Shown here piece after piece: positions 1-31,608 of a stretch of DNA of 64,000 nt; position 1 is the stretch's first letter; each line of letters starts with the position of its first letter. A program made the position numbers and the translations under genes. The notes beneath the pieces were generated by a model. It did no database searches. It saw only the letters and a list, made by a program, of their open reading frames with translations, and was not told the DNA's origin. Source of the stretch: Giardia intestinalis (taxonomy: Eukaryota); NCBI GenBank assembly GCA_000002435.2, contig CM018792.1; one strand, 5' to 3'.

Positions 1-2135
1 CTGACAACAACGCAGACCGGCTTCCATGGTATTTCAATGCCGAGCAGCATGCAAGAAGGATACTTGCCAAGCGAAATTCCACAAAAGACTCCCTGTCAAT
101 AGGCTCCTGGTTGTCCTGCGATAGTGGCTGTAGAAGCACTTCCTCTGCCGAGAAGACCGAAAGCGTTCAGAAGCAAGTCGAGAAGGAGGAAGTTTCAGCT
201 AAAGATAGAACCGACACAGTAATTTGCCAGCTGCTGCAGGAGATCAAAGGCATTTCTCTGGTCTCTGGTGCTCTGGATCTTTTTAACATTGGACTGGATG
301 ACGAGCTGAAGGTGGCAATGGAAGGCGGAAAGAATATATATGAATATGATGAGAATGGCACGGCTATTGTTACCTACAACCACGTGGCTATTAATGATAA
401 CAGCCTCTTTGTTGCTACACCCCCAAAGCAGGTCTCCTACTCTCAAAGTAATGGCCTAGAAACGTGTGGTGGATATAGCAACTTCATGAGCTTGTTCAAT
501 ACTGAGGCCACAGATTTTCGCCCTAAGGGGCTCATCGACTATGACTCGTCTTCTGACTATGTGTTTCACAATCGCTATGTTGGAGATGAAGCAGCAGATT
601 CCTTTTCTGCCAATGCCCAGGCTATTAAACTTAGTGACCGTTTTGACCAAGCTGTTGCATCCTTACCAACCGTGCTTCACGCAGATATTTTCAAGGAAAT
701 AGAGCGCGCAGGCAACAAGCAGGCAGAGAAGGATGTCCACAGCTATGCTACCGGCAAGGAAGCAACACAAGTTTTGAGGAAAAAGCTTCCGCTCATTGAC
801 TTCAAAATGATTCGGCATGCATCTACTCTCGAGCCCATGGAACACTCTATTGATCTTCTTCCATTCTATTCTGGAATAAAACTTAATTTTATAGATGTGC
901 CTCCTCTATATGCTTTTCCAGGAGCTAGGTTAAATGCGACAAATGGCTGCACCACCGAGGAACAAACACGCGAGGATCTTGAAAAACTAGAAAAGAATCT
1001 GGAGACATCCGTAGCAAGGCAAAGCAGTATGCATGCAGAGCTGTTGACTGCTGTTCAAGCCATCCATTCCATGTTTATGCCTCCAGGACCAAGTTATGTG
1101 CCTAGCGCAAATCAGATCTTTATTTCACCAGAGTTTCTTGCGGCTCAAAGAGAAACGGCAACAGCGCTAGTCAACCCACAAACTCGTCAAATACAGGCAA
1201 CAGCCCTCGAAAGGCTCATCGCAATAGTTTCTGAACAGCATACACGAGCCAGCCAACAGTTCGTTGCGGAAAATACTGTCATAGAGCAGTTTGTTGCCAC
1301 TCTGAAAGTACAATACGACAAATTGAGTCTCGAAAACCCTCCTCAGCAGCACCTTGTGGATGAATATAATCGTCAGCGCCAGCTTCTTGAGACCCGGAGA
1401 ACAGTGGGAATCTCGATCAGGAATCTCGTCGACAATCTGAATAAGGAACTGATCACATTGCAAAGAATCAAGGCACTGAGTTCAACTATTTTGTCGGTTG
1501 ACACGGAGATTCAAGCAAGCAAGCAGAAGATTGCTCAAGCAAGAGCTATGCAATCTGTGACAAGGGACACTGCGAACCAGATCAATCCAGTGCATCTGGA
1601 GCAGATTGGCACACTCATATCGAATGCAGAACTCTTTATTTATGTCTATGATTGTACATCATCCATCCACCAGTTCGGTGTGGATCAGCAAGTAGTGGAG
1701 AGCCTCGCCTCTTCATCCTTATCTCAAACATGCACACCACTCTATCGCTACGTACCCGAAAGCGTATATTCTGATCAAGTGATCACCATGTCTTCCATTT
1801 ACCAGAGGCTCTCTGCCATTGGGGCGACAGTTCCTGGCATTATAGTATGTAACAAATGCGACAATCTGGTGATAAACGGCTCAATAAAGACGCTTTGCTT
1901 TGGCCTCAGACTTGCGGAGCTCCTTGACTGGCCCCATATCTTTGCAAGCAGCCGCACCGGTGCATTTATCAACAGCGTACTTCGCCCAGTCATCCTGCAA
2001 AAAACGCGATCAATCGCTGGGATCCTTGAAGCCTATGGAGACTCTATTGCAAACATATATAGCACACCGTTTCCTTTACCCAACGTAATCCCCGCCGCAG
2101 TGCCAGAGTTCCTTTCTCTTCTGACCGACCACTAA
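1..2135 (+). CDS. Hypothetical protein, 5' end probably outside the window (frame open back to nt 1; track start 111 is a TTG). The C-terminal region carries Ras-superfamily-like motifs in canonical order but no recognisable P-loop.
   Basis: 674-aa ORF. No in-frame stop between nt 3 and 111. C-terminal motifs in order: RDTANQ (cf. DTAGQ), ELFIYVYDCT (cf. Rab ILVYDIT), IIVCNKCDN (NKxD G4), FASSRTG (cf. ETSAKT G5). No GxxxxGK[ST] found. Confidence 0.45.
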   Translation, partial: DNNADRLPWYFNAEQHARRILAKRNSTKDSLSIGSWLSCDSGCRSTSSAEKTESVQKQVEKEEVSAKDRTDTVICQLLQEIKGISLVSGALDLFNIGLDDELKVAMEGGKNIYEYDENGTAIVTYNHVAINDNSLFVATPPKQVSYSQSNGLETCGGYSNFMSLFNTEATDFRPKGLIDYDSSSDYVFHNRYVGDEAADSFSANAQAIKLSDRFDQAVASLPTVLHADIFKEIERAGNKQAEKDVHSYATGKEATQVLRKKLPLIDFKMIRHASTLEPMEHSIDLLPFYSGIKLNFIDVPPLYAFPGARLNATNGCTTEEQTREDLEKLEKNLETSVARQSSMHAELLTAVQAIHSMFMPPGPSYVPSANQIFISPEFLAAQRETATALVNPQTRQIQATALERLIAIVSEQHTRASQQFVAENTVIEQFVATLKVQYDKLSLENPPQQHLVDEYNRQRQLLETRRTVGISIRNLVDNLNKELITLQRIKALSSTILSVDTEIQASKQKIAQARAMQSVTRDTANQINPVHLEQIGTLISNAELFIYVYDCTSSIHQFGVDQQVVESLASSSLSQTCTPLYRYVPESVYSDQVITMSSIYQRLSAIGATVPGIIVCNKCDNLVINGSIKTLCFGLRLAELLDWPHIFASSRTGAFINSVLRPVILQKTRSIAGILEAYGDSIANIYSTPFPLPNVIPAAVPEFLSLLTDH

Positions 2136-4066: not shown

Positions 4067-7000
4067 ATGGCCAGCGCCTTGTCTATTAATGAGCTGTTCA
4101 CCTTGCGTGACGCGCAGGTTCCCGAGGGGTCCTGCTCCCCTGAGCACTTGACTGTGTCGTCGTCTTCTGGGATCTGTGTATGCGTGACCACTGGGGAGGC
4201 AGCAAATTTAACTGTTGTTAACACGGTTAACCCACAGGCCACAAAGACTTTCCCCATTCAAGCACAGCACGCGATCCAGCACAGGAAGAACCCCAACATC
4301 GTGGTCTTGCGCACGCCAGTCCTGCTCCAGACCCTCGATGTTTCCACTATGACCCCTTATGGACGTTTTGACTTTCCGAACCCCATTGGAGTGGACTACT
4401 GGGGCTGGGCCACGGACGAGAAGCTGGCACTCGTCTGCCCCGATGCCGTCTACTTCTGGAATTGCATGACGGGAGAGTTTTCCCCAGGGTTCGCGCGGGA
4501 CGTGAGCTTGACGAGCACCTACAGTAACTCGCGCATCACTGACCTAGCCGTCTCGTCTGACGCAGACTGGGTCGCAATCACTGCGCTGGGCACGGACCAG
4601 GCAAACCACACACAGGGAATGATCCAGCTCTACTGCTTTAGCAGGGCATATACCCGTATGCTTTCAGGGCAGTGCGTGACTTTTGTTGACTGGCAGCTCG
4701 ATGCGACAAGGCCGAAAACCACTCTTCTGGCGTATGCACACAAGCCTACTGGGTCGCAGGAGATCACAATTAACATAATGGAACCTGCACCACAGGTTGG
4801 GGCTGACGGCGCCTCTATCTCTGGCTTCACAACGAAGGCCGTTCAGGCCACCGTGAGCGCCGCGCTTGTAGGCGTGGATCATCCTCTGTTCTTGAGGGGA
4901 AAGGAGAAATACGGTTTTCTTTACATGTTTTCCAAGCAGGGCAACGTTACCTTGGTGGATATCTACAGCGGCCTCTTGATCTATCAGGGCCCCATTTCGG
5001 GGGAGATGGTCTTTGCTATCGGAACGTGTTACGAAGGTGGGACTTTTTCTGATACCCATGACTTTATAGGCATCACCACCGATGGCCGGTGCTATGGGAT
5101 TGGGGTGGATAAGATCAATCTGGTGAACTATGTCATGACTAAGCGTGGCCAGCCGGACGTTGCCTACGCCATCGCCTTGCGCACGGGGATCCGGGGCGCC
5201 GACTCTTTATTCCAACAGAAGCTAGATGGCTATCTTGGTCAGTACCAGTGGAGCGAGGCTGCTGAGCTTGTTAAGATAGCTCCAGCAGGTGTCCTTCGCA
5301 CAAAGGCCACAATAGATCGTTTTCTAGCTGGTGCTGCGTTCACTGCACCAGGCGCACCAACGCCAATCATGATCTATCTTACGCGGATGCTGGAGAACGA
5401 TGGCAAGCTAGCTATTGAAGAGGAGTCGATGGAGTTGGCGAAGTTCCTTGTTCAGACTTCTAATGTGAGTACCATCGAGACGTACATTAAGGAGAAGCGC
5501 TTTTTTGCAACCGAAGGGTTGGGCGACTACTTGGCGTCTGTGGGTCTCGAGCAACCGTCGTTCACCACGTATGCTAACGCTGGGTGCCACGAGAAGGCCA
5601 TTGCCTGGCTCATTGCGCACAACCAATACGCTATCATCCCACAGTATGCACAGAAGTTCCCAGAGTACACGCCAGACTATCCACGTATTATAAGCCAGGC
5701 ACTAAAGCAGGCGGAGCAGAGACCTGATGGCGCATCCACCATAGAGAGCATATACCAGTTTTCGCTTAGCATCACCCAGGCACTTGATGCGACCACAGAC
5801 GGAGATAAGATTCTAGATATTGCAGATTGCTTCGCTGACATAGGGAGGGTGAACGAGGCTACAACAATCCTCCTGGAAGTTTGCAAGCGCTACAACTACT
5901 CCGACGATACCGTTATCTACCAGTCGATGGTTATTGAGCTCAACAGAGGGGTGAACCAGGCAGTCGTGGATGCCATACAGGCTAAGGGCGTGCTTGCAAG
6001 AATTAACCGGGCAGAGATAACTAAACGCAGCGAGGAGAGCGGACTTTATCAGCGGGCGTTTGAATTCTGTGATTCCGACGCAGAATGTCGGCGCATCGCA
6101 TCAACCTATGCTGCAAAGCTAGGGAAGTCAATCTTCTCGTCACCACGGTGGTATGGCGCGTATATCAAACGTGCATCGCGCTTTTCAAATCCAACCGACG
6201 ATGTTATTAAGAGTCTTTTTGCCTTTCAGCAGCAAATGCTTGAAATAACAATAGGCGGGGAGCGCATCTACGCTGACCATGTTGCCATGGGCTTTGCTCT
6301 CTCTCCGATCGTTGTTTCTAACGTCAGTCTGTGTGTTACTGTTGTCAAGGTCTTTGAGAAATATGGAATGGGTAACTCCGAAGCCCTCTACCTTTTCTTG
6401 TCCATGATTGCGCCCACGTGCCTGGATTCGTCCATCCACAACTTCCTTCTCCGCACAATTCTTCAGCTGGATTCAAAGACTCTTGAACTCACACACATAG
6501 TCGCTGAAGATCAGTATCTGGACCCGAATGAGTGCTTCACCATAATGACTACCACGACCCCTGCAAGCCCGGACGCCTTCCTCCAGGCTTTCCTTACTTT
6601 TTGCGAGCGGTTCCATCTCGGCAAGAAACTGGGTTTGTTCCTAACAGACTCCATCACCAACAAGGTTCTAGGGAAAGACACGTTCTTTACACTGAACGCA
6701 GCAACGATTGTAGAGGCGTTCATCGGTGGACATGGAGTTGCGCAGGCGCATGACCTCCTCTTCGGTCTGTTCGAAGGAGGAGTGCTGGCAGTTCCAGAGA
6801 GGCCTGCCCTAGACGCCGTTTTTTCAGCAGACATGCTCAGCAAGCTGATGGAAAAGCCTGCAGTTCAGGCTGGTTGTGATATCAATAAGGTTGTGGATGC
6901 CTGCTTCACAAGCTCTCGAACTCTTAAAGTCGGGCGCTCACTTCTCGAGAAGCGTCTAGCATCCGGGACAACAGACACGTTTGTCCACACTGCGTTTGCG

Positions 7001-9682
7001 AAGCTACACATGGAAGAGCGCAACGGCAATGCTAAGCGCCTCCTCATGGAGGACCCTTACATCGACCACGCGCTCATAGGAACCTTCATTCTGGAGTCTC
7101 CGACACACCGGACCGATGACTTTTTAGTCGATCTTGCAATGACATCGCTGACCATCGGGGCTTTTGGACCAACGACTGCAGGCGCTGATTTTTCTGACCA
7201 CATTATTAACGGAGAATGCGCCAGGATGCTGGTCTTAGTTGCCTACGCAGGGAGTGCTTACAAGGAGCTGGCTGAGAGGCTCCTCTTGCACAAGTGTAGT
7301 GAGCTTTGGCAGCTGGCTCTTGTCGGAGTTATGAACGAGGACCCAGCTTCCGACGTCATCAAAGCAATCACGCAGGGTGGGATGCGTCCGATGAGCATGC
7401 ACAGGGACATGCTCTTGCAGGTCTTGGCGCACAGCCCGCCAATTCCTCTCGACACGCTCAGCGATGCACAAATTTTCGTTCTATCTTCGTCTATTCTTGC
7501 CATTAAGAATGAGAGCGATGCAATTCCAAGATATCTACAGGCGATACTAGAAAAGATCATCACTTCTCCGGGCTCTGTGCACGCAAGCAATCCGGGCATG
7601 CAGAATCTTCTCATCGTTACCGCCCTAAATACAAAGGACTATCCTAAGGTGTCGGCCCTTATTCGCTCTGCAGACATGTGCTATGACCAGGACGTAATTG
7701 CAAAGGCTTGCGTGGAAACGGCAAAGAAGAACGAGTACCCGCCTCTCTACGAGGACGCCTTTGAGGTTTTCCACCGCGCCGGGCGTCCCATTGATGCCAT
7801 TCGAGTACTTTTGGACAACATCTCCATAGACCGTGGGATCACTTACGCTAACTCTGTGGGCCTTCCTGAAGTGTGGTCCTTAGTTGGATCGGCCCAGCTC
7901 GAAAAGGCAAGTGCTTATGCATCCGAGGATAATGGGCGCTTCGCGTTGAAATTTGCTTGTGACGCAATAGCATCGTATTTGACCGGAAGATGGACCGCTG
8001 ACTACCGTAATCTTATAATCACGTCATTCAAGGTTTCAAAGGCGTTTATGCACACGCACTCTGTTGAGGTTCGGAGTGAGCTGGCCGCTTTGCTGGAGTA
8101 TTTAAGGATGGCTCGTGTTGTGGTGGCACAGAAGGGGGAGACGTCTTCCCAAGCAGAGATAGATACCGCAGTCATGTATTGCCTGGCCAGGCTGGATGAC
8201 TATGGTGCCCTCAGCGAGTTTCTGGAGTCAGTCAATCCACGCGATAGTACTGTGATACCGAATCGCGGAGGAATAAAGGAGGTCGGAGAGAAGTGCTTTG
8301 CTGAGGAGCATTACAAGGCTGCAAAGTACTTCTTTGAGTTTGTCGGTGACTGGTCACGACTATCTCTTACGTTGGTCAAGCTTCGCTGCTTGAAAGAGGC
8401 GGTGGAGGCTGCTACACGCGCCGCAGATCCTGAGTGCTGGAAGGCGGTAGCTGCAGAGTGCCTGGAGATCCGCGATTTTGAGCTTGCAAAGTCAGTCTTC
8501 CTCAACCTCGTCCTCGTAGAGTCTGAGCTTCCGTCGATAGTGCAATATTATGAGGAGTATGGTTTTATTGAGGAGCTCCTCGAGGTCCTGGAGGCAGGCG
8601 CCGAACAGCCGCAAGCAGCCACATACACCTCTATGGAGACGAATATATTCACCATCCTGGCAATACTTTACTGTAAGTACATGTGGATTGTTCGCAAGAC
8701 AGACCCCCAGCGTCTACAAACGTATATCAAGACGCACGGAAACAAAATCCATATCCCGACTCTTCTGCACTGGACCCGTGAGACAAGGCTCTGGGGAGAG
8801 TACGCGTATCTGCTGGCAGCGTCCCGTGACTTCGACAAGGCTGTCGTTGAGATGATAGCCCATCCCCCGTCGTCTTTCAATCATGATGTTATGAAGAAGG
8901 TGATAGGACGGGTCTCAAATCCTGAGTTGGTTGCCCAAGTCGTAAGCTTCTATATTGAGTACTCCCCAGAGTATCTCTGCGACTTCTTAAAGGCTTGTCA
9001 GCTCGGGGTTCCAAATGCCGACGGCTCTCCAGGGATCCCTGCTGCCTTGGATCCTATTCGAGTGATTGCTATGGTGAGATCCTACGATTGCGTCCCTATG
9101 ATTAAGTCGTACCTGGAATTGTTTGTAGGTGCGCACAACCAGGAAATTAACGAGACCTTGATAAAGATTTACCTTGAGAGCTATGACGACGAAGGCCTGA
9201 GGAGACTTATTGCCGCAACGACTGCCTATGATGCACACGCACTCTTAGACAATTTGGTATCGGAGGATCAGACAGATGACATGCGGAAGCTTGCGGTAGG
9301 GCTCTATGGACGCCTGAATCGATACGACGAGGGCATCAAATTTGGTCTTCAGAATTGGTTTTATGAGGACGCTGCGGAGTGTGCAGCGGACTCGGGACAG
9401 ATCGAGCACTGCGAGGCATTGCTACGCTTAGTCTGCAGCTCGCAGTTCCCCACGCCGAAGATCAGAAAGGAGGTCTTTGCTGTCATTCTCATTCGCTGCG
9501 GCCACTGCATCAGGCCCGACGTAGTCATGGAGTTGGCCTGGGTCAACAGAATGACAGACTACATGATGCCATACATGATCTCCACGTTGCAACGCTACGG
9601 GTCTGCAGTCCGCACACTTGCGGGGTCGATTGCAGAAGCAAGAGGCATGATTCCGGCGCAGCAAGCACCCCAACAACACTAG
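4067..9682 (+). CDS. CHC: Clathrin heavy chain
   Basis: 1871 aa. N-terminal beta-propeller similarity to clathrin HC: AVYFWNCMTGE vs AVYHWSMEGE; GMIQLYCFSR vs GAMQLYSVDR; FLYMFSKQGNVTLVDIYSGLLIYQGPISGEMVF vs [31 protein letters not shown]. Followed by a long alpha-helical repeat region. ATG at 4067 follows aattaaaataaattaaaaacct. Confidence 0.85.
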   Translation: MASALSINELFTLRDAQVPEGSCSPEHLTVSSSSGICVCVTTGEAANLTVVNTVNPQATKTFPIQAQHAIQHRKNPNIVVLRTPVLLQTLDVSTMTPYGRFDFPNPIGVDYWGWATDEKLALVCPDAVYFWNCMTGEFSPGFARDVSLTSTYSNSRITDLAVSSDADWVAITALGTDQANHTQGMIQLYCFSRAYTRMLSGQCVTFVDWQLDATRPKTTLLAYAHKPTGSQEITINIMEPAPQVGADGASISGFTTKAVQATVSAALVGVDHPLFLRGKEKYGFLYMFSKQGNVTLVDIYSGLLIYQGPISGEMVFAIGTCYEGGTFSDTHDFIGITTDGRCYGIGVDKINLVNYVMTKRGQPDVAYAIALRTGIRGADSLFQQKLDGYLGQYQWSEAAELVKIAPAGVLRTKATIDRFLAGAAFTAPGAPTPIMIYLTRMLENDGKLAIEEESMELAKFLVQTSNVSTIETYIKEKRFFATEGLGDYLASVGLEQPSFTTYANAGCHEKAIAWLIAHNQYAIIPQYAQKFPEYTPDYPRIISQALKQAEQRPDGASTIESIYQFSLSITQALDATTDGDKILDIADCFADIGRVNEATTILLEVCKRYNYSDDTVIYQSMVIELNRGVNQAVVDAIQAKGVLARINRAEITKRSEESGLYQRAFEFCDSDAECRRIASTYAAKLGKSIFSSPRWYGAYIKRASRFSNPTDDVIKSLFAFQQQMLEITIGGERIYADHVAMGFALSPIVVSNVSLCVTVVKVFEKYGMGNSEALYLFLSMIAPTCLDSSIHNFLLRTILQLDSKTLELTHIVAEDQYLDPNECFTIMTTTTPASPDAFLQAFLTFCERFHLGKKLGLFLTDSITNKVLGKDTFFTLNAATIVEAFIGGHGVAQAHDLLFGLFEGGVLAVPERPALDAVFSADMLSKLMEKPAVQAGCDINKVVDACFTSSRTLKVGRSLLEKRLASGTTDTFVHTAFAKLHMEERNGNAKRLLMEDPYIDHALIGTFILESPTHRTDDFLVDLAMTSLTIGAFGPTTAGADFSDHIINGECARMLVLVAYAGSAYKELAERLLLHKCSELWQLALVGVMNEDPASDVIKAITQGGMRPMSMHRDMLLQVLAHSPPIPLDTLSDAQIFVLSSSILAIKNESDAIPRYLQAILEKIITSPGSVHASNPGMQNLLIVTALNTKDYPKVSALIRSADMCYDQDVIAKACVETAKKNEYPPLYEDAFEVFHRAGRPIDAIRVLLDNISIDRGITYANSVGLPEVWSLVGSAQLEKASAYASEDNGRFALKFACDAIASYLTGRWTADYRNLIITSFKVSKAFMHTHSVEVRSELAALLEYLRMARVVVAQKGETSSQAEIDTAVMYCLARLDDYGALSEFLESVNPRDSTVIPNRGGIKEVGEKCFAEEHYKAAKYFFEFVGDWSRLSLTLVKLRCLKEAVEAATRAADPECWKAVAAECLEIRDFELAKSVFLNLVLVESELPSIVQYYEEYGFIEELLEVLEAGAEQPQAATYTSMETNIFTILAILYCKYMWIVRKTDPQRLQTYIKTHGNKIHIPTLLHWTRETRLWGEYAYLLAASRDFDKAVVEMIAHPPSSFNHDVMKKVIGRVSNPELVAQVVSFYIEYSPEYLCDFLKACQLGVPNADGSPGIPAALDPIRVIAMVRSYDCVPMIKSYLELFVGAHNQEINETLIKIYLESYDDEGLRRLIAATTAYDAHALLDNLVSEDQTDDMRKLAVGLYGRLNRYDEGIKFGLQNWFYEDAAECAADSGQIEHCEALLRLVCSSQFPTPKIRKEVFAVILIRCGHCIRPDVVMELAWVNRMTDYMMPYMISTLQRYGSAVRTLAGSIAEARGMIPAQQAPQQH

Positions 9683-9710
9683 GCCCTGTTCTGGATTTCA
9701 GAGCAAACAA

Positions 9711-10172
9711 CTACTCTTGTAAATTTGACGTCTTCGATGCTTTCTCTGTTTCGAGCTTGGATTCTAGTCGCCGGCGAGCCCTCCAAAGAACTTTGCGGCT
9801 GACCGAGCAACGAAGAAGTGTGGAGACTATGCTGTAGTAGTGGGCTAACGGGAGATTAGGGGCCTCCCTAAGAACAGCTGCAGCCACGTTATCCACATGG
9901 GCAAGAAGGGGGAAAGGACTTTCGTCGGTGTGGAGAACATGGTGCAGAGCAGCCTCGTCGGCAATGACTGAGCCGTCTACTCGTATGGAAATTCGTACAG
10001 ATGCGGAGCAGCCTGCAGATTTGCAGATAAGATGAATACGTCGAGCATCTGCTTTTAGGACTCGCCAGCGGGACCCTCTTGTGACGATATGGTCCGAGTA
10101 ATACCTAAGAGCGTCGTCCTTCGAGCAGAAGCGCCTCTGCGAATCAAGCTGCTGAACAACAGCTGCAGACAT
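9711..10172 (-). CDS. Small candidate gene (about 153 aa from the first ATG) with a WRKY/FAR1/GCM1-type zinc-finger-like pattern. Lies in the 505-bp gap between convergent CHC and kinesin genes, in frame with the kinesin and directly downstream of it.
   Basis: ORF 9711..10187 begins with a GTG immediately after the kinesin TAA. First ATG is 15 nt later (MSAAVVQQLDSQRRFCSKDDALRYYSDHIVTRGSRWRVLKADARRIHLICKSAGCSASVRISIRVDGSVIADEAALHHVLH). Pattern: F...A..YY......G..W.V.K......L.C-x4-C-x21-HH-x2-H. Codon usage looks Giardia-like. A 500-bp convergent spacer is atypically long for this genome otherwise. Confidence 0.4.
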   Translation of the reverse strand: MSAAVVQQLDSQRRFCSKDDALRYYSDHIVTRGSRWRVLKADARRIHLICKSAGCSASVRISIRVDGSVIADEAALHHVLHTDESPFPLLAHVDNVAAAVLREAPNLPLAHYYSIVSTLLRCSVSRKVLWRARRRLESKLETEKASKTSNLQE

Positions 10173-10187
10173 GGGAAATTTGTTCAC

Positions 10188-13100
10188 TTAGTGTCCAGTA
10201 TCTGTTTTCGTCTGATCCACGAAAATAAACTTCTTTATAATAAGAACTTGCTCTCCGTTGATCTCCTTGAATCCATCCTCCTTGGTCTGGGTCCTGACGA
10301 TGTTTGTGCTAACAATAGCGACCTTCTTCTTGGACGGATCGGGGAGCGCGCTGTCTTTGATCTCGGGCACAAGGGAGTCGGCATAGGCCGAGGTGTACCC
10401 ATAAAGACTGACCTCTAAGCCGGTCCCACTAGTGCGCAGCCATTCCAAGACATCGTCCTGCTTAAAGTAGCTCGTCTTAAGATCCATGTAAATAGTTGAG
10501 TCGAGCGCAGGGTTTGGCGAGAGGTCTGAACTAGAGGCTGTCTGAAAGGTATAGCCCATGTCCAGTAACCTTCGGCGAAACTCATTTTCTTGATAAACGG
10601 AGAGGCGTTTTCCCTTCGGACGTCCAGCGTCCGGGTTGACAAACCATGGCATATGAATCACAGCGTGAACCTTCTTGCAGCACTGGGTGGGTACATTGTA
10701 CGCCTTCTTGAAGTAAGCAGCAATGGTCGTTACAGGGCTTTCGTTCTGAACCAAATTTGCAACATCACATGCGAGGCACTCGGCTCCGTGGTGTGAATAC
10801 CCCGAGCCCAGAAGTGAGAGCGATACATCAATGCTAGTGGCTGCCTTACCCGAGTAGTCATAAATCGGAACGGAAAAGACATCCGTCTCACACGTCTCGA
10901 GAAGACCCGACAGAGGGATACGCCCAACCCCGATAAGGTGAGTTAGGGTCTGGTTATAGATATCTGCCTCCAGATCGAAAGGAAACTCGTCATCATCCTC
11001 TAGATCCCTGTCTGCACTCTCATGTGCCCTGCGCACAGCCTCTTCCTTACCAAGAGTCATCGCAAGTCCGTACATGCGCCTCATGCCGGAGAGTCGCAGC
11101 CCAAATTTCTCTAGTGCCCAGACCTGTCTGATAAGCTTGCGATCCCTGGTTTTGCTGGGGGCAGCCGTGGCCGTCACCAAAATCTCTACGAGTATACCAC
11201 TCAGATCGTCATCAATCTGATCCGCTCGTAAGTCCTTCGTCATTGGATGATTTTTGGACATATTGCGAATGGTCTGACATCGAGCAGCCTGGCGTAGAGA
11301 CGTCGGACTGATAGATGTACGAGCTTGTGCAGCAAAGCGAATGTCATAACAAAAGTACTCTGCTATGGAATTCGCCTCGCAGATAAATGGATAGAGCTGA
11401 CGCAGCACCTCGTGAACCTTCTTTTCATAGGTGGTCCGCTCATCATCGTTTCCAAAATCTGCATAAAAGCTTTCATTGATGTCTGTCTGCACGTTATCTA
11501 AGCCAGGCGTAATTCCAAATGCATCGTCCATGGTAACGGAAACATTCTCCTTAGACACAGGATCATCTCCTATAGGTCTCTGTGCAGTGTCCTTCCCAGA
11601 GCTCTGATAATACGTGTATTCACGTAGTGCAAGATCATACGTTATCTCTGGCTCTACGTAGTCGTAATCCTGTTCCAGAGACTGTTTGACTGCAGCCGCA
11701 CGTGCAGGAGGATCGTAGTAACGATAGAAGGATGACTGGGCCGCAGACCCGCACTTGATACGGTCGCCGTGACGGAGCTGGTGAGTAGAACCAGCAGCTA
11801 TCTGCCTTCCATTGATGTAGAGAGCCCCTTTCGCGCTGAGGGGCCTTATAGTGGCTTCAGTGACTTTGGGAAAGATAGGATTAGCGGTTGAGTCAACGAC
11901 TTTGCCTGTCAAGGAAATAATAAAGTGCTCACCAAGCACACCGAGTTTGCTGACAAGGGCTATCCTGCACTGGCACTCTGTCGGCCCACTATCATCTGCA
12001 CCAACGACAACAGTAACAGGACGAGCATCTTTAAGATCATTCTCAGAACATAACGTATAAATTAGCTGGCCATTATCAGAAGCATTTGAGCTCAAATTGG
12101 ATATATACGGAGTGGTAATTTCTGACCCAAAAGCTGCCGCGAGGCCCATCTTTTTGAGCTTATCTTGTAGCTCTTGTCTGTTCTGCTCCGCTCTGGCTAG
12201 CTTCTCCTCTAGAGATTGATTCCCTTCCTTAAGAAGTCTGTCATACTCGGCTATCTTTGCTTCTAATTCTAAGCGCTCAGCATCAGACAGGCCTGGTTCT
12301 ACAGCACCTGCGTCCCCGGCGGGGGCGCCCCCGGCGAGGAGGGCCTCGAGCTCCTTGACGCGGTCCTCGAGCTCGCGGATGTACTTCTCCTGGGCAGACT
12401 CGTTCTTCGTGACGGTGTTCTCGATCTGGTGGGCGCGGTCTGCGTAGCGGAGGGTCGAGAGGCTCTCGTCGTAGTTCGTCGACGCAGGCGAGATCGCGGC
12501 GATCATGCACGTCATCGAGTTGCCCCCGAGCGCGGGCTGGAGGAGGTACGTCAGCTGGGAGTCGCGGTACGGGACGTGCTGGGGCTTCCGGCGGCCCTCC
12601 GCGGTCGTGTTGTACGCGAGCGCCTCGATGACGCGCCCGAGGGTCGTCAGGGACTTGTTGATGCTGATGCCCTCCGTCAGGCGGTCGCCCGTCGCGCCCG
12701 TCTTGCCCTGGCGCTCGGACCCCGCGAGGTCGACGAGGCTCACCCGGGCGCGCTTGACGTGGCGCCCGACCTCCTCGCCCGCGTCGTTCCGGAGGACCGC
12801 CGTCTGGACGACCTCGATCGCGAAGACGGAGTGCGAGCGCGAGCTCGTCGCGTTCATGTTCGTCGCCGCGACCGTCCGGTTCCGGTCCCCGAGCTCGATC
12901 AGGCGCTGGATCGCGTCGTAGTCGGCGACCGCGTGGTGGCTGAGGTTCTGGACGAAGACGCCCGCCGCGGGGTCCTGGCGGATCCGGAGCTCCTGGGCGC
13001 CCGCGGCGGGGACGAGGAGGTCCCGGAGCCGCTCGTTGTAGATCTCGAGGAACGAGACGGAGACCTGCGTCTCGGCGGGCGAGGCGGCGGCGCGGCGGAA

Positions 13101-13475
13101 GAGCTCGCGCCCGACCCGCGGGATGATCCCTGCGTCGGCCTCGCTCGCGGGCGCGCCCATCATCGAGTACGACTTCCCGGAGCCCGTCTGGCCGTACGCG
13201 AAGAGCGTGTAGTTGTAGCCCTCGAACGCGTTGTCGAGGACGCTCGGCCCGATGTCTGCGTAGACCGTGTCCTGGGTCGCGCACGGGCGGCTCGCGTCGT
13301 GGGACCAGTACGCGTGGTCGTAGACGAACGCCGCGTCGGGCTTCTTCGCGTCTGCGTCCCGGAGGACGACCTTCCCCCCGCCCGGCATGTCGACGCAGAG
13401 CCGCGCCGCCTCCCTCTTCTCGCGCGCGTTGAACGGCCGGACGCGCACCGCGACCTTGACCCCTGTCACCGGCAT
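10188..13475 (-). CDS. Kinesin-3 family motor protein (N-terminal motor, FHA-like domain, long tail)
   Basis: 1095 aa. P-loop GQTGSGKS, switch I NATSSRSHSVF, switch II LVDLAGSER, neck coiled coil. FHA-like block VVVGADDSGPTECQCRIALVSKLG...HFIISLTGKV...ALYINGRQIAAGSTHQLRHGDRI. ATG at 13475. First 390 or so codons are extremely GC3-rich. Confidence 0.85.
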   Translation of the reverse strand: MPVTGVKVAVRVRPFNAREKREAARLCVDMPGGGKVVLRDADAKKPDAAFVYDHAYWSHDASRPCATQDTVYADIGPSVLDNAFEGYNYTLFAYGQTGSGKSYSMMGAPASEADAGIIPRVGRELFRRAAASPAETQVSVSFLEIYNERLRDLLVPAAGAQELRIRQDPAAGVFVQNLSHHAVADYDAIQRLIELGDRNRTVAATNMNATSSRSHSVFAIEVVQTAVLRNDAGEEVGRHVKRARVSLVDLAGSERQGKTGATGDRLTEGISINKSLTTLGRVIEALAYNTTAEGRRKPQHVPYRDSQLTYLLQPALGGNSMTCMIAAISPASTNYDESLSTLRYADRAHQIENTVTKNESAQEKYIRELEDRVKELEALLAGGAPAGDAGAVEPGLSDAERLELEAKIAEYDRLLKEGNQSLEEKLARAEQNRQELQDKLKKMGLAAAFGSEITTPYISNLSSNASDNGQLIYTLCSENDLKDARPVTVVVGADDSGPTECQCRIALVSKLGVLGEHFIISLTGKVVDSTANPIFPKVTEATIRPLSAKGALYINGRQIAAGSTHQLRHGDRIKCGSAAQSSFYRYYDPPARAAAVKQSLEQDYDYVEPEITYDLALREYTYYQSSGKDTAQRPIGDDPVSKENVSVTMDDAFGITPGLDNVQTDINESFYADFGNDDERTTYEKKVHEVLRQLYPFICEANSIAEYFCYDIRFAAQARTSISPTSLRQAARCQTIRNMSKNHPMTKDLRADQIDDDLSGILVEILVTATAAPSKTRDRKLIRQVWALEKFGLRLSGMRRMYGLAMTLGKEEAVRRAHESADRDLEDDDEFPFDLEADIYNQTLTHLIGVGRIPLSGLLETCETDVFSVPIYDYSGKAATSIDVSLSLLGSGYSHHGAECLACDVANLVQNESPVTTIAAYFKKAYNVPTQCCKKVHAVIHMPWFVNPDAGRPKGKRLSVYQENEFRRRLLDMGYTFQTASSSDLSPNPALDSTIYMDLKTSYFKQDDVLEWLRTSGTGLEVSLYGYTSAYADSLVPEIKDSALPDPSKKKVAIVSTNIVRTQTKEDGFKEINGEQVLIIKKFIFVDQTKTDTGH

Positions 13476-13607
13476 TTCTTTTTTTACTGGTTCTAGTATA
13501 GGATGGTGTATAGGTCATGTAGGGTAGGGTAGGGTAAACACTTACCTCTAGACTACGATGCTCCATACTAGAGAGCTCGGATCCAAAAAATAGAATTCGA
13601 GCTCTTG
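13476..13607. promoter_or_regulatory. Bidirectional intergenic/promoter region between the divergent kinesin-3 and coiled-coil genes. AT-rich stretches abut both ATGs. Contains an imperfect 12-bp inverted repeat and (TAGGG)3.
   Basis: aaaaaaagaaATG on the minus side and ...gaattcgagctcttgATG on the plus side. GAGCTCGGATCC-aaaaaata-GAATTCGAGCTC at about 13573-13604. tctaga at about 13547. tagggtagggtaggg at about 13520-13534. Confidence 0.5.
13520..13534 (+). repeat. Interstitial telomere-like repeat (TAGGG)x3
   Basis: Exact tagggtagggtaggg. TAGGG is the Giardia telomeric unit. Confidence 0.6.
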
Positions 13608-16205
13608 ATGACAAGCGCGCTTCCCCGAACACCAGACCTAGCGTATCTTTCTGCAGATGCTCCCCGATCTGTTGAACGATTTCCAACTACTCAGGAGCCT
13701 CCCGAAAATCAGGCTATGAGGCAGTCGTCCAGTACACTTGTTGGTGGTCTCAATGCCAACGACTCAATGGCACGCAGCTCGACGAACTACATGGGAGAGT
13801 CTCAGCTGAATACTATTGAAAGTCTTCAGATGGAGGCACAGCGAAAGGACAAGCTTCTAGAGAAGCTCAACATACAGCTCAGAGAACGCGAAGAGCAACA
13901 TGACAGAGACATGGAGGCATTATCTGAAATGCAAGAGCTATTGGACAAGAAAGAAGAGCAAATAAGCGAGCTAGCTCTCGCTGTTAGCCAAAGAATGGAG
14001 GTACAGGCAGATAATGCATTGACAGAGAGTCTTACACTTAATGGCTGGGACATGCTTGATACAAATGATGGAGTGAAGGACCCCACCAATCAGGGCACAC
14101 AGAATCTTGGTGATAGCCTGGATCTGACTGTCAGTACTCCGCACTCTGCCCGCTCGGCAGGGCCACTAGAGGCAGACGCATTAAGGCACTCTATACGCAA
14201 ACTTCAGTTTCAGCTTACTCAACGCGATCGTCTGCACCTAGATACTGAGATTTCTAATCAAACTTATCGTGACGAGATCCAGCATTTAAAGGACGAAAAT
14301 TCCCAATATCAAACGCTGATCACCTCACAGGCCGATGAAATACAGATGCTACGCGAACAGCAGATAGGCGAGACAGAAGAACTAGCAGCAATGGAAGAAG
14401 AAATCTCTGTTCTTCGTACCACTCTAGCAGAGAAGCTGCAGCTCATAGAGTCCTTGACCGCTGAGGCGCAAGTTTCTAAGACGCAGCTCCTAGAAATGAA
14501 GGATGCTACGCTTCTCGTTCAGCATTCCGCAGATGTTGCCACAGCAGAAATAGAGACCGCAACAGAAGAAATCACGACCCTCCGCGTGGAGCTAGAGGCT
14601 GAGCGGCAAAAGGTAATTGATTTACAAGCTGCGCTTGACCACGAAAAGTTTGCATCCAAGCAGAAAACGCATGAATACACTGAGGTACTTACCAATCTTT
14701 CCCACTCTCACGGTGTTGTTAACTCTCTGGAAACGCAAATACAAGACATGGAGACACACGCTAGAATAAAGGACGAAGAGATTGAAGCCCTGCAGCTTAA
14801 GTGTAGGTCGCTTCAGCTGGAATTGGACGATACTCGCGCTCAACTAGAGAAGGCCATGAACAACGTAACAACCTTGGTACCAAACCTGTCTCCAGATGAG
14901 CTTGCAACAATATTGTCTGACAACAATAGGATGCTCAATATGCTCACAGACAATGCATCAGAAACAGAGGCATTGCTGGCTGCCAATGAGAAGCTTCAGG
15001 CTTCAAATGGAGAGCTAAAGAAGATGAATGCAGAACTTGTCGCCAGAATGGAGCATCTTTCAATTATGGATTCTGCAGAAACTTCGGAAGCAGCATCGAA
15101 TCAAGCCGCGCTTCTGGACGCAAAAAACAAAATGATCAATAAGTTAGAGGTAGAGCTGGACTCACTACGTCAGAAGTACCACTTGATGGAAAAATCCCTC
15201 AACGAACAGTTAGAGGCCGTCACTGTGGCCAAGGTGACACTGGATGCAGAGAATTCAAGGCTACGCACAGAGCTACAGAGCGTTGAGCCTCAGACCATGA
15301 GTAGTATGAACAGCGCCACAAGCATTAGCATTGCTGGGGGCCACTCCCCAGGCCGTGCTGGTAGCATATCATCACAGGTTATGGGATTGAACTCAGATAT
15401 TACACGCCTGCAAAATGAACTACGCCGCAAGGATGCTGAGATGGACAATATGAGTACGCAAATAGCAACCATCATGGAGGAAATACTATCGGTCCGCCAG
15501 GCCAACATGTCTCTGGAACAGGACGTGCAAGCCTTATCGCAAGAAGCTGAGTATCACAAAGGTCAGGCGTCCATGTTAGAGAAGACGCTTGCTCAGACAC
15601 GCGAGGAGCTCCGCATAACCTTGGACAAGACTCGCGTGGGAGAACTCATTGAGGCACTGAATGGGAAGACAGCAGAAGTCACTAAATTGATTCGCGTAAT
15701 CGAAGAAAAGAACTCGCAGATAAAGGACATGCAAATAGAGCTTGATGGAAGGGTACTAAGTGGTACGACCGGTAAGGTTATGCAGGCAACAATCAAGAAC
15801 CTTGAAGAAGAAATTCTGCGCCTCAACCAAGAATTGGAGCTTGTTGTTATCTCCAATGAAAGCCTGGAAAGCCGTCTACATAGCATGGGTGGGAGTATTG
15901 GACAGCCCCAGCCTCAGACACTGGCGGCCAAGATGCCTGTCAATTCAACTACAAATTTCCATGAGCGTGAAGACCATCTAGGCAGCGATGCATCCTCCGT
16001 CTCAGCAACCATAAGGATGCGTCAGCTCTCTGAAGAGGTGTTATCTCTCAAGGACACCATCGCTAATCTCACAACCACGCTGAAGCAGAAGGATGCACGC
16101 CTAGAAGAGGTATCGTCCGAGCTTTCAGTCAAGTATGTGGAGCTAGATAACATGAGGGGGCTTATTAAAAAGAAGAACGAACAACTTATGCAGCTGATGA
16201 AGTAA
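13608..16205 (+). CDS. Large coiled-coil protein (about 865 aa)
   Basis: ORF track starts at a TTG (13605). First ATG is at 13608. Heptad-rich, E/K/L/Q-rich throughout. No globular domain recognised. Confidence 0.6.
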   Translation: MTSALPRTPDLAYLSADAPRSVERFPTTQEPPENQAMRQSSSTLVGGLNANDSMARSSTNYMGESQLNTIESLQMEAQRKDKLLEKLNIQLREREEQHDRDMEALSEMQELLDKKEEQISELALAVSQRMEVQADNALTESLTLNGWDMLDTNDGVKDPTNQGTQNLGDSLDLTVSTPHSARSAGPLEADALRHSIRKLQFQLTQRDRLHLDTEISNQTYRDEIQHLKDENSQYQTLITSQADEIQMLREQQIGETEELAAMEEEISVLRTTLAEKLQLIESLTAEAQVSKTQLLEMKDATLLVQHSADVATAEIETATEEITTLRVELEAERQKVIDLQAALDHEKFASKQKTHEYTEVLTNLSHSHGVVNSLETQIQDMETHARIKDEEIEALQLKCRSLQLELDDTRAQLEKAMNNVTTLVPNLSPDELATILSDNNRMLNMLTDNASETEALLAANEKLQASNGELKKMNAELVARMEHLSIMDSAETSEAASNQAALLDAKNKMINKLEVELDSLRQKYHLMEKSLNEQLEAVTVAKVTLDAENSRLRTELQSVEPQTMSSMNSATSISIAGGHSPGRAGSISSQVMGLNSDITRLQNELRRKDAEMDNMSTQIATIMEEILSVRQANMSLEQDVQALSQEAEYHKGQASMLEKTLAQTREELRITLDKTRVGELIEALNGKTAEVTKLIRVIEEKNSQIKDMQIELDGRVLSGTTGKVMQATIKNLEEEILRLNQELELVVISNESLESRLHSMGGSIGQPQPQTLAAKMPVNSTTNFHEREDHLGSDASSVSATIRMRQLSEEVLSLKDTIANLTTTLKQKDARLEEVSSELSVKYVELDNMRGLIKKKNEQLMQLMK

Positions 16206-31438: not shown

Positions 31439-31608
31439 CCGAGGATGTACTTTACCCTCTTTTATACCCTCTATTTATATAAACTTGTAGCTTTGTATCT
31501 AATGCCTAAATTCATAATTCTATAATTCTGTTCTCTTTAATGTTTAAAATCATTCACGCGTAATTGTTGAGCCTATCCAACTTAATTTCTAAAAAACAAA
31601 TCTCCAAA

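What the first reader, a model, noticed from the sequence alone, without database searches (positions are those of the whole stretch)
12300..13475. Kinesin-3 motor domain encoded by a sharply delimited block with near-100% G/C at third codon positions
From the ATG (13475) down to about nt 12305, aa 1 to about 390 (motor plus neck), almost every codon ends in G or C: CGC, GAG, CTC, GCG, ACG, TCG, GTC, GGC and so on. Local GC is about 70-80% against about 48% in the flanks. The bias stops within one or two codons at ...GAC GCA GGT GCT GTA GAA CCA. The rest of the same ORF uses ordinary mixed codons (tta, gaa, ata). The block starts exactly at the start codon, and the upstream spacer is AT-rich. 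This looks like recoding of one protein domain. Possible causes are gene conversion from a GC-rich paralogue, localised GC-biased conversion, a chimeric assembly, or an engineered codon-optimised segment. The GC skew also creates long spurious ORFs in other frames (12283..13686 -, 12429..13496 +).
Basis: seen in the sequence. Interest (0 to 1): 0.7.

Follow-up and report, generated by a model that had tools for sequence, protein, structure and literature searches.

The report
Gene-converted GC-rich kinesin motor repeat
The GC-saturated first third of this Giardia kinesin-3 gene is a natural 1.18-kb module shared almost base for base with a second kinesin-3 gene about 30 kb away; ongoing gene conversion keeps the two copies identical and has most likely driven them to about 98% G/C at third codon positions.

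Summary
Codons 1-388 of the ORF at 10188..13475(-) have GC3 of 98.2% (381/388), against 51% in the rest of the gene and at most 80% in any 60-codon stretch of the other 23 window ORFs.

It is not engineered, chimeric or recent. The window is Giardia duodenalis assemblage A, and the protein equals WB Kinesin-3 XP_001709752. The same step occurs in assemblages A2, B and E, and more weakly in G. muris.

The block (window 12304..13484, nt -9 to +1172) is one arm of an inverted repeat. The other arm is the 5' part of a second kinesin-3 gene, K3b, which has an unrelated tail. The two copies are 99.5-100% identical within each lineage. They are only 95% identical between A and B and 76% between G. 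duodenalis and G. muris, so this is concerted evolution. The end of identity and the GC3 step coincide within 1-7 codons. A third kinesin-3 paralogue, K3c, which shares no such tract, has an ordinary motor (GC3 0.54).

GC-biased gene conversion is the best explanation for the saturation, but it is inferred. A crossover within the repeat also appears to have inverted the intervening ~30 kb in assemblage A.

This is a clean new example of a known process.

The parts
10188..13475 (-). Kinesin-3 gene 'K3a', 1095 aa. Its protein is identical to G. duodenalis WB Kinesin-3 XP_001709752.1/KAE8303821.1 (P0122).
   Evidence: ORF. Pfam Kinesin and FHA. Identity to P0122.
12304..13484 (-). Shared conversion tract, gene nt -9 to +1172. 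It forms one arm of an inverted repeat whose other arm is the 5' part of paralogue K3b, which lies outside the window, about 27 kb beyond the K3a stop codon on the clathrin side.
   Evidence: There is 1 mismatch in 1181 nt against WB-type K3b (L015). Against DH K3b there are 2 mismatches up to nt 1147, followed by a 15-nt indel. The geometry comes from DH contig AHGT01000029.1.
12312..13475 (-). GC3-saturated run, codons 1-388. GC3 is 0.982 and total GC is 0.71.
12423..13445 (-). Kinesin motor domain (aa 11-351).
   Evidence: Pfam PF00225, E = 8e-106.
12333..12398 (-). Neck coiled coil (about aa 360-381, SAQEKYIRELEDRVKELEALLA). It lies inside the shared tract.
   Evidence: Position is inferred from the sequence after the motor domain. 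The coiled-coil assignment is an inference from general kinesin-3 architecture.
12303..12332 (-). Gly/Ala/Pro hinge GGAPAGDAGA (aa 382-391). Both the paralogue identity and the GC3 saturation end here. A 15-nt indel at this site is polymorphic (absent in DH K3b).
10188..12302 (-). K3a-specific tail with ordinary codon usage (GC3 0.51). It contains the FHA domain at 11748..11975. It cannot be aligned with the K3b tail but is orthologous to the K3a tails of assemblages B and E and of G. muris.
13476..13604 (.). 129-nt divergent intergenic spacer (GC 0.41) between K3a and the 866-aa ORF. Only the A-rich stretch AAAAAAGAA directly before the ATG (13476..13484) belongs to the shared tract.
13605..16205 (+). 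866-aa coiled-coil ORF, used as a flank marker. It lies next to K3a in assemblage A but next to K3b in assemblage B and G. muris, and by 58 nt of upstream sequence in E as well.
   Evidence: tblastn. Gene tables. P15 upstream sequence.
4067..10187 (.). Clathrin heavy chain (4067..9682 +) and a 158-aa ORF (9711..10187 -). This is the conserved tail-side flank of K3a in all lineages.
12283..13686 (-). Spurious 467-aa out-of-frame ORF. The companion 355-aa ORF at 12429..13496 (+) is also spurious. Both are artefacts of the stop-poor GC-rich block.
   Evidence: No Pfam match.

Best explanation
The block is a ~1.18-kb module comprising 9 nt of leader, the motor domain, the neck coil and part of the hinge. 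It is present twice in the Giardia genome, as the 5' part of two kinesin-3 genes (K3a, here, and K3b) that have unrelated cargo-binding tails.

The two copies lie in inverted orientation on the same chromosome. They are ~30.7 kb apart and tail-to-tail in assemblage A. In G. muris they are 21.6 kb apart and head-to-head.

Recurrent non-allelic (ectopic) gene conversion between the two arms keeps them near-identical within every lineage, while the pair as a whole diverges between lineages. This is concerted evolution, and it is shown by the data.

Each conversion event forms heteroduplex DNA. If mismatch correction favours G:C over A:T, every round pushes both copies towards G/C. Over the long time since before the split of G. 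duodenalis and G. muris, this has saturated third codon positions (98%) and has also driven amino-acid replacements towards GC-rich codons. This GC-biased gene conversion step is inferred.

The tract cannot spread beyond the hinge or beyond the start of the gene, because homology ends there. That is why composition changes within a few codons.

An occasional crossover instead of a simple conversion inverts the DNA between the arms. This appears to have happened in the assemblage A lineage. It exchanged which upstream region, and therefore which promoter, drives which tail.
For: (1) Concerted evolution. Over nt 1 to about 1170, identity between the two copies within a lineage is 99.9% in A1 (window vs L015, 1 mismatch), 99.5% in B, and 100% in G. 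muris within a single assembly. In E it is 100% over the 291 nt available. Between lineages it is about 95% (A vs B), 97% (A vs E) and 76% (G. duodenalis vs G. muris), whichever copies are compared. Past nt ~1172 the paralogues show only ~38% identity, which is noise, while orthologues keep 73-84%.

(2) 43 A-versus-B differences are fixed in both paralogues of each lineage, against 10 single-copy variants. 9 of 9 E-versus-A differences in the available fragment are shared by both E copies. The hinge variant GGAPVEDADA is shared by both E copies, against GGAPAGDAGA in both A copies.

(3) The boundaries coincide. The GC3 change-point falls after codon 388 (A), 387-388 (B) and 384 (G. muris). Identity ends at codon 391 (A), 386-389 (B) and 389-391 (G. 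muris).

(4) Control. The third kinesin-3 paralogue, K3c, is 62% identical in the motor and shares no such tract. Its GC3 is 0.54 and it has no comparable step.

(5) The pressure is not limited to synonymous sites. GC1/GC2 are 0.67/0.47 in the block and 0.50/0.38 in K3c. GARP residues are 0.34 against 0.21-0.26 in K3c and seven other kinesin-3 motors. R/(R+K) is 0.72 against 0.38-0.51. At residues that differ from K3c, GC content at positions 1 and 2 is higher in the block at 94 sites and lower at 21.

(6) Fixation bias. 9 of the 10 single-copy variants are A/T alleles against G/C in all other copies, whereas polarised fixed changes are 11 W>S to 7 S>W (Fisher p = 0.003).

(7) A-B synonymous divergence is 0.10 in the block and saturated (pS 0.74) in the tail.

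(8) There is a DNA-level signature. The dinucleotide bias is strand-symmetric (TpG 0.43 and CpA 0.76 depleted; TpC 1.87, GpA 1.48 and CpG 1.37 enriched). The choice between G and C at fourfold sites depends on the next codon's first base. Before A, 80% are G in the block against 36% in the other window genes (p = 2e-7).

(9) Inversion. The 866-aa ORF is next to K3a in A1 and A2, but next to K3b in B and G. muris. K3c/RtcB is next to K3b in A, but next to K3a in B and G. muris.

(10) Franzen et al. 2009 (PMC2723961) reported PCR-verified recombination and inversions in Giardia GS between very similar genes 15-30 kb apart.
Against: The GC bias of the repair step has not been observed directly.

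Codon choice among G- and C-ending synonyms is strongly non-random: GTC 28 to GTG 3, CTC 26 to CTG 4. This partly matches the published 'optimal' codon set of high-CAI Giardia genes (PMC8393687), which pure gBGC does not predict. Some selection on codons therefore cannot be excluded.

The polymorphism-versus-fixed test rests on small counts and on polarisation with a distant outgroup.

The copies compared within A2 come from one assembly and within G. muris from one assembly. The copies compared within A1 and within B come from different isolates or assemblies.

The B and E arrangements come from short-read-era assemblies that cannot span a 1.18-kb perfect repeat, so the lineage in which the inversion happened is less secure than the fact that an exchange happened (G. 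muris versus A).

Polishing can over-homogenise repeats in assemblies. It cannot create the shared fixed differences.
Confidence: 0.75

Rival explanations
1. Translational selection. The motor module is encoded with Giardia's preferred G/C-ending codons for speed or accuracy of translation, and gene conversion merely copies that state between the two genes.
For: All 26 published optimal codons of G. duodenalis end in G or C, and high-CAI genes prefer GUC over GUG and CUC over CUG, as the block does (PMC8393687; block codon table). Whole genes with GC3s up to 99% exist in this genome.
Against: The tail of the same mRNA has GC3 of 0.51. The related K3c motor has GC3 of 0.54. The step coincides with the end of paralogue identity, not with the end of the conserved motor domain at aa 351. 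Amino-acid composition is shifted towards GC-rich codons. The G-versus-C choice depends on the next codon's first base, and the dinucleotide bias is strand-symmetric, which points to a DNA-level cause. The block prefers GCG over GCC and TCG over TCC, the opposite of the high-CAI set.
Confidence: 0.15
2. Independent recent duplications. In each lineage a motor module was copied recently onto the other gene, so the copies are identical because they are young, not because they are continually homogenised.
For: Near-identity of the copies within each genome.
Against: It would require the same segment, with boundaries at -9/-20 and at codon ~389-391, to be copied independently in A, B, E and G. muris onto genes whose tails and flanks are orthologous. 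One replacement event per lineage is itself a gene conversion. GC saturation in both copies of all lineages argues for a long shared history.
Confidence: 0.03
3. Artefact or engineering. The block is a chimeric assembly, a collapsed repeat or a synthetic codon-optimised insert.
For: The sharp boundaries and a block beginning at the start codon look designed. Short-read assemblies do break at this block: the P15 contig ends inside it, the Logan contig L007 ends 21 nt into it, and many fragmentary Logan proteins map to it.
Against: The same block is present, with lineage-specific substitutions, in at least 7 independent assemblies of 5 lineages, including a chromosome-scale G. muris assembly (1.3-Mb record). 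The ORF is intact and orthologous throughout.
Confidence: 0.01
4. Horizontal acquisition. The motor module was acquired from a GC-rich organism.
For: The composition is foreign to the surrounding genome.
Against: After the Giardia K3a/K3b orthologues, the next-best protein matches are the G. duodenalis and G. muris K3c sequences, well ahead of kinesin-3 of other eukaryotes. The block shares 62% amino-acid identity with K3c and the same N-terminus, MPVTGVKVAVR. G. muris has a less extreme version (GC3 0.88), which fits gradual in-situ enrichment.
Confidence: 0.01

Closest known systems
GC3 enrichment of paralogues undergoing ectopic gene conversion (mammalian Hsp70 genes, Kudla et al. 2004; mammalian histone genes, Galtier 2003; duplicated yeast and Arabidopsis genes, Benovoy et al. 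2005). These are cited from my own knowledge and were not retrieved here.
   Different: Here the tract covers only one module of each gene, so converted and unconverted parts sit in one ORF with a step only a few codons wide. Saturation is near-complete (98%). The organism has no observed meiosis. The two copies are arms of an inverted repeat that also mediates an inversion.
Concerted evolution and gBGC of ribosomal DNA, including the unusually GC-rich Giardia rDNA (Escobar et al. 2011, as cited in PMC10123126).
   Same: A multi-copy sequence in Giardia has GC content far above the genome average, and gBGC has been proposed as a cause.
   Different: rDNA is a tandem, subtelomeric, non-coding-RNA array. 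The kinesin block is a two-copy, protein-coding, chromosome-internal inverted repeat. This allows synonymous and non-synonymous effects to be separated.
Recombination between similar genes 15-30 kb apart in Giardia GS, such as the dipeptidyl-peptidase I 'hybrid protease' pair GL50803_28651/22553 (Franzen et al. 2009, PMC2723961).
   Same: The organism, the distance scale, and inversion or recombination through homologous gene segments. Both arrangements were detectable in one isolate.
   Different: The kinesin-3 pair is not named in that paper or in its supplementary text. No compositional consequence was described there.
Inverted-repeat-mediated inversions with arm homogenisation (plastid inverted repeats; the human F8 int22h repeats). 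Cited from my own knowledge.
   Same: Inverted arms are kept identical by intramolecular conversion, and crossovers flip the intervening segment.
   Different: Here the arms are coding 5' modules of two functional genes, so an inversion swaps promoters between two different tails.
Kinesin-3 family (KIF1A/unc-104, KIF13).
   Same: N-terminal motor, neck coil and FHA domain. The best non-Giardia hits are KIF13, KIF1 and unc-104.
   Different: There are no recognisable PH, CAP-Gly or KIF1B-type tail domains. The lysine-rich loop-12 'K-loop' reads ESKKKHKF in K3c but EGRRKPQHV in the block, with K replaced by R or other residues (sequences).

Membership tests
Kinesin-3 | N-terminal kinesin motor domain | tested here: met
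   Pfam PF00225, aa 11-351, E = 8e-106.
Kinesin-3 | FHA domain downstream of the neck | tested here: met
   Pfam PF00498, aa 501-576, 22.8 bits against a cut-off of 20.7, E = 1e-4. The match is weak but above the curated threshold.
Kinesin-3 | Closest relatives outside the genus are kinesin-3 members | tested here: met
   KIF13A/B, unc-104 and Dictyostelid kinesin-3 at E of about 1e-105 to 1e-110. Sources name the Giardia orthologues 'Kinesin-3'.
Kinesin-3 | Lysine-rich K-loop in loop 12 | tested here: inconclusive
   The corresponding stretch is EGRRKPQHVPYRD in K3a and ESKKKHKFIPYRD in K3c. It is still basic, but the lysines are largely replaced.
Concerted evolution by ectopic gene conversion | Paralogues are more alike within a lineage than orthologues are between lineages, over a delimited tract | tested here: met
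   Identity is 99.5-100% within lineages and 95% or 76% between them. Orthology is restored outside the tract.
Concerted evolution by ectopic gene conversion | Lineage-specific substitutions are shared by both copies | tested here: met
   43 fixed A/B differences are shared, against 10 single-copy variants. 9 of 9 are shared in E.
Concerted evolution by ectopic gene conversion | Direct observation of a conversion event | not testable with these tools
   This needs marked alleles or pedigree or clone resequencing.
GC-biased gene conversion (gBGC) | GC enrichment is confined to the recombining tract | tested here: met
   The GC3 change-point and the end of identity fall within 1-7 codons of each other in three lineages. 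The K3c control is not enriched.
GC-biased gene conversion (gBGC) | It acts on all sites, including non-synonymous ones | tested here: met
   GC1 and GC2 are raised, the GARP/FYMINK balance is shifted, and there are 94 GC-raising against 21 GC-lowering replacements relative to K3c. The block protein also evolves faster than the K3c motor: 75% against 85% identity to G. muris.
GC-biased gene conversion (gBGC) | W>S changes are favoured at fixation relative to their share among new variants | tested here: met
   Singletons are 9 S>W to 0 W>S. Fixed changes are 7 S>W to 11 W>S. Fisher p = 0.003. The counts are small and the outgroup is distant.
GC-biased gene conversion (gBGC) | Indifference between G- and C-ending synonyms (no codon-specific preference) | tested here: not met
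   GTC 28 to GTG 3, CTC 26 to CTG 4, and a G/C choice that depends on the next base. The context dependence is strand-symmetric, so it still points to a DNA-level process. Plain gBGC alone does not explain it.
GC-biased gene conversion (gBGC) | Measured repair bias in heteroduplex DNA | not testable with these tools
   This needs an experiment in Giardia.
Engineered or codon-optimised insert | Absent from natural isolates and relatives | tested here: not met
   The block is present in A1, A2, B, E and G. muris with lineage-specific changes.

The most novel reading that the evidence does not exclude
The kinesin-3 block would be a natural reporter showing that Giardia, an organism with no observed meiosis, has a very strong GC-biased and sequence-context-dependent recombinational repair system. 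On this reading, the genome's wide GC3 range (26-99%) and its 'optimal codons', so far attributed to translational selection, would largely be a map of recombination and gene-conversion intensity. The extreme GC content of the rDNA would be part of the same map. A related possibility is that the inverted repeat works as a flip-flop that swaps promoters between two cargo-specific kinesin tails within populations.
Probability: 0.25. Interest if true: 0.65.

Novelty: new member of a known kind. Interest (0 to 1): 0.45.

Why it matters
The converted and unconverted parts of this gene share one ORF, one mRNA and one expression level. This gives an unusually clean within-gene contrast: GC3 of 98% against 51%, and A-B synonymous divergence of 0.10 against saturation. 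The contrast separates recombination-driven composition from expression-driven codon bias.

It shows that homologous recombination between sites 20-30 kb apart has been active in every Giardia lineage examined. That bears on the long-running question of how Giardia keeps its four genome copies so similar, and on whether it has sex-like recombination.

It also has practical consequences. The 1.18-kb perfect repeat breaks or mis-joins short-read assemblies, and the P15 orthologue is annotated as a truncated 775-aa protein. It makes read mapping and gene-specific PCR or knock-down of the two kinesins ambiguous. It is also a likely site of structural polymorphism between assemblages.

Tried and rejected
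(1) An exact look-up of the window protein found nothing, although the sequence equals P0122 (WB). The source was therefore identified through the homology search and cluster listing instead.

(2) Other copies of the block. BLAST of the block against the window and all fetched loci found only K3a and K3b orthologues, and K3c at 64-68% identity. The protein search shows no third protein carrying the identical motor.

(3) K3c as a possible third conversion partner. Its first 31 codons have GC3 of 0.84, but the nucleotides differ from the block and the change-point is weak (2*dLL = 12). It was rejected.

(4) Introgression between assemblages as the cause of the low A-B dS in the block. It was rejected as unnecessary, because the block is also slow at synonymous sites against G. 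muris (dS 0.57, against saturation in the tail).

(5) The out-of-frame ORFs as real genes. They have no family match and are explained by composition.

(6) Literature. Searches for Giardia with gene conversion, kinesin, concerted evolution, GC-biased gene conversion, kinesin-3 and inversion found no description of this block. The supplementary synteny-break text of Franzen 2009 does not mention kinesin.

(7) The published optimal-codon table could not separate selection from gBGC, because both predict G/C endings. The context and strand-symmetry tests were used instead.


Full report
**1. The observation**

The ORF at 10188..13475 on the minus strand encodes a 1095-aa protein. It has an N-terminal kinesin motor (Pfam PF00225, aa 11-351, E = 8e-106) and a weak but above-threshold FHA domain (aa 501-576). 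This is a kinesin-3 architecture.

Third codon positions are G or C in 381 of the first 388 codons (0.982). From codon 389 onward GC3 is 0.51. A maximum-likelihood change-point falls after codon 388 (window nt 12312) with 2*dLL = 330. Total GC is 0.71 in the block, 0.49 in the tail, 0.41 in the 129-nt upstream spacer and 0.484 for the whole window.

Across the 23 other long ORFs of the window, 60-codon sliding GC3 averages 0.52 (SD 0.08) and never exceeds 0.80. The block is therefore a real and extreme outlier, with a binomial P of about 1e-96. They match no protein family and are by-products of stop-poor GC-rich DNA.

**2. Source and orthologues**

The best protein matches are Giardia Kinesin-3 proteins: assemblage B at 87%, P15 (assemblage E) at 93% over a truncated 775-aa model, and G. 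muris at 54%. The cluster listing adds the WB protein XP_001709752.1/KAE8303821.1, which is identical to the window protein. The window is therefore G. duodenalis assemblage A, WB-like.

The orthologues show the same step at the same place. In assemblage B, GC3 is 0.99 before codon 387 and 0.50 after. In the A2 isolate DH, it is 0.98 and 0.51. G. muris has a weaker version, 0.88 and 0.63, with the change-point at codon 384. In P15 the contig ends inside the block, which explains the truncated annotation.

**3. A second copy**

A second kinesin-3 gene, here called K3b, has exactly the same GC3 profile over its first ~390 codons. Its proteins are P0127 in WB (XP_001709737.1), P0004 in DH, P0005 in the assemblage B isolate GS_b, P0128 in P15 and P0009 in G. 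muris.

Nucleotide comparison gives the textbook pattern of concerted evolution:
- Window K3a and WB-type K3b (L015) differ at 1 of 1181 positions, from nt -9 to +1172.
- The two assemblage B copies differ at 6 positions.
- The two G. muris copies, in one chromosome-scale assembly, are identical over about 1174 nt.
- The two P15 copies are identical over the 291 nt available.
- Between lineages the block is about 95% (A vs B), 97% (A vs E) and 76% (G. duodenalis vs G. muris) identical, whichever copies are compared.
- Beyond nt ~1172 the paralogues cannot be aligned (~38% identity), while orthologous tails keep 73-84%.

43 A-versus-B differences are fixed in both paralogues of each lineage, against 10 single-copy variants. 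All 9 E-versus-A differences in the available fragment are shared by both E copies. At the junction itself, both E copies read GGAPVEDADA and both A copies read GGAPAGDAGA.

The end of identity falls at codon 391 in A, 386-389 in B and 389-391 in G. muris. The GC3 change-points are at codons 388, 387-388 and 384. The two boundaries therefore coincide within 1-7 codons in three lineages. At the 5' end, identity starts 9-20 nt before the ATG.

**4. Geometry and an inversion**

On DH contig AHGT01000029.1, K3b lies at 30027-33092 (+) and K3a at 59822-63109 (-). They form a convergent inverted repeat with about 30.7 kb between the arms. This explains why K3b is not in the window. In G. muris the arms are divergent and 21.6 kb apart.

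The flanks are exchanged between lineages:
- The 866-aa coiled-coil ORF (window 13605..16205) is next to K3a in A1 and A2, but next to K3b in B (86% identity) and in G. muris (27%, E = 1e-36).
- The K3c-RtcB pair is next to K3b in A, but next to K3a in B. K3c is also next to K3a in G. muris.

The 58 nt upstream of P15 K3b match the upstream region of A K3a.

A single crossover within the inverted arms, inverting the ~30 kb between them, converts one arrangement into the other. Because B, E and G. muris agree, the inversion most likely occurred in the assemblage A lineage. One caveat applies. The B and E assemblies could not span a 1.18-kb perfect repeat, so the A-versus-G. muris contrast is the secure part of this inference.

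Franzen et al. 2009 reported PCR-verified recombination and inversions in GS between very similar genes 15-30 kb apart, with both arrangements sometimes present. They did not name the kinesins.

**5. Why the block is GC-saturated**

Several results point to a DNA-level, recombination-linked cause and away from codon selection.

(a) The tail of the same mRNA is ordinary.

(b) The third kinesin-3 paralogue, K3c, is 62% identical in the motor and shares no such tract. Its GC3 is 0.54 and it has no step.

(c) The pressure reaches the non-synonymous positions. GC1/GC2 are 0.67/0.47 against 0.50/0.38 in K3c. GARP residues are 0.34 against 0.21-0.26 in K3c and seven other kinesin-3 motors. R/(R+K) is 0.72 against 0.38-0.51. 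Where the block differs from K3c, its codons are GC-richer at positions 1 and 2 in 94 cases and GC-poorer in 21. The block protein has also diverged more from G. muris than the K3c motor has, with 75% against 85% identity.

(d) Nine of the ten single-copy variants are A/T alleles on a G/C background. Polarised fixed changes are 11 W>S to 7 S>W, even though W sites are the minority (Fisher p = 0.003).

(e) A-B synonymous divergence is 0.10 in the block and saturated (pS 0.74) in the tail. This is expected if S>W changes are continually removed.

(f) The block has its own strand-symmetric dinucleotide signature. TpG is 0.43 and CpA 0.76 (both depleted). TpC is 1.87, GpA 1.48 and CpG 1.37 (all enriched). 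In the other window genes the corresponding values are 1.13, 1.17, 1.14, 1.16 and 0.77. At fourfold sites the G-versus-C choice depends on the first base of the next codon. Before A, 80% are G in the block and 36% in the other genes (p = 2e-7).

GC-biased gene conversion explains points a to e. Point f shows that something beyond a simple G/C preference operates. This is probably a context dependence of mutation or mismatch repair, but it remains unexplained.

The selection rival retains some weight. GTC greatly exceeds GTG and CTC greatly exceeds CTG, which matches the published high-CAI codon set. The block's GCG>GCC and TCG>TCC preferences go the other way.

**6. Relation to what is known**

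GC3 enrichment of paralogues under ectopic conversion is established for mammalian Hsp70 and histone genes and for yeast and Arabidopsis duplicates. I cite this from my own knowledge. gBGC has been proposed for Giardia's GC-rich rDNA (PMC10123126).

G. duodenalis genes are known to span GC3s of 26-99%, and all their 'optimal' codons are G/C-ending (PMC8393687). Saturated GC3 is therefore not unique in this genome.

No paper in the searchable library describes this kinesin-3 module, its concerted evolution or its intragenic step. I classify it as a new and unusually clean member of a known kind.

**7. Verdict**

Concerted evolution of a two-copy inverted module is shown (about 0.97 confidence). 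GC-biased conversion as the cause of saturation is inferred (about 0.7).

Interest is moderate. The finding is not a new kind of biology. It is a sharp natural experiment on recombination-driven composition in a putatively asexual parasite, and it has practical consequences for assembly, annotation and gene-specific assays.

Noticed in passing
window 13520..13534 (+), 45-59 nt upstream of the K3a ATG; also L014:2930-2944: There are three perfect units of TAGGG, which from my own knowledge is the Giardia telomere repeat, in the K3a/866-aa intergenic spacer. It occurs once in the window, with 0 expected in 100 shuffles. It is present in A1 and A2 but absent from the fetched B, E and G. muris upstream regions and from the A K3b upstream region. 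It sits beside the junction of the assemblage A-specific inversion.
   Followed up: partly
L002:1-2407 (P15 contig ACVC01000132.1); L007 end; proteins P0123-P0126 and P0129-P0132: Short-read assemblies break at the 1.18-kb repeat. The P15 K3a is annotated as a truncated 775-aa protein because its contig ends inside the block. A Logan contig ends 21 nt into the block. Many fragmentary Logan proteins cluster with the two kinesins.
   Followed up: yes
window 12318..12332 (hinge); L004:3148-3160: A 15-nt indel (GCGCCCCCGCCGGGG, encoding GAPAG, flanked by the repeated GCCGGGG) lies at the edge of the tract. It is present in WB K3a, WB K3b and DH K3a but absent from DH K3b (1021 aa against 1026 aa). 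It is a length polymorphism at the conversion boundary.
   Followed up: partly
L007:6001-9222 (K3c, assemblage A); L003:1-2948 (G. muris K3c): The third kinesin-3 paralogue is far more conserved between G. duodenalis and G. muris than K3a is. Its motor is 85% identical and its tail 84%, against 75% for the K3a block and 45% for the K3a tail. The two genes with the shared motor evolve much faster.
   Followed up: partly
window 12590..12630 (loop 12 of the motor): The kinesin-3 'K-loop' reads ESKKKHKF in K3c but EGRRKPQHV in the GC-saturated block. The lysines (AAR codons) are replaced by arginine and other residues with GC-richer codons. Microtubule on-rate or processivity might therefore be affected by the compositional drive.
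   Followed up: no
block 12312..13475 (-): Five of the nine A/T-ending codons among codons 1-390 are GCA in the same context, (G/T)AC-GCA-G. More generally, TpG and CpA are avoided and TpC, GpA and CpG are enriched in a strand-symmetric way that is opposite to the rest of the window. The mechanism is unexplained.
   Followed up: partly
L001:883-2737 (assemblage B, BAH15c1): The RtcB gene next to K3a matches the assemblage A RtcB in two pieces whose coordinates imply different reading frames. It is annotated as 478 aa against 627 aa in A. This is either a frameshift or an assembly error.
   Followed up: no
window 111..2135 (+): This ORF is only the 3' part of a much larger gene (at least 1708 aa in Logan contigs L008 and L009) that starts before the window.
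   Followed up: no
window 13605..13610: The 866-aa ORF listed as starting with TTG has an ATG as its second codon (TTGATGACA). The real start is probably 13608.
   Followed up: no
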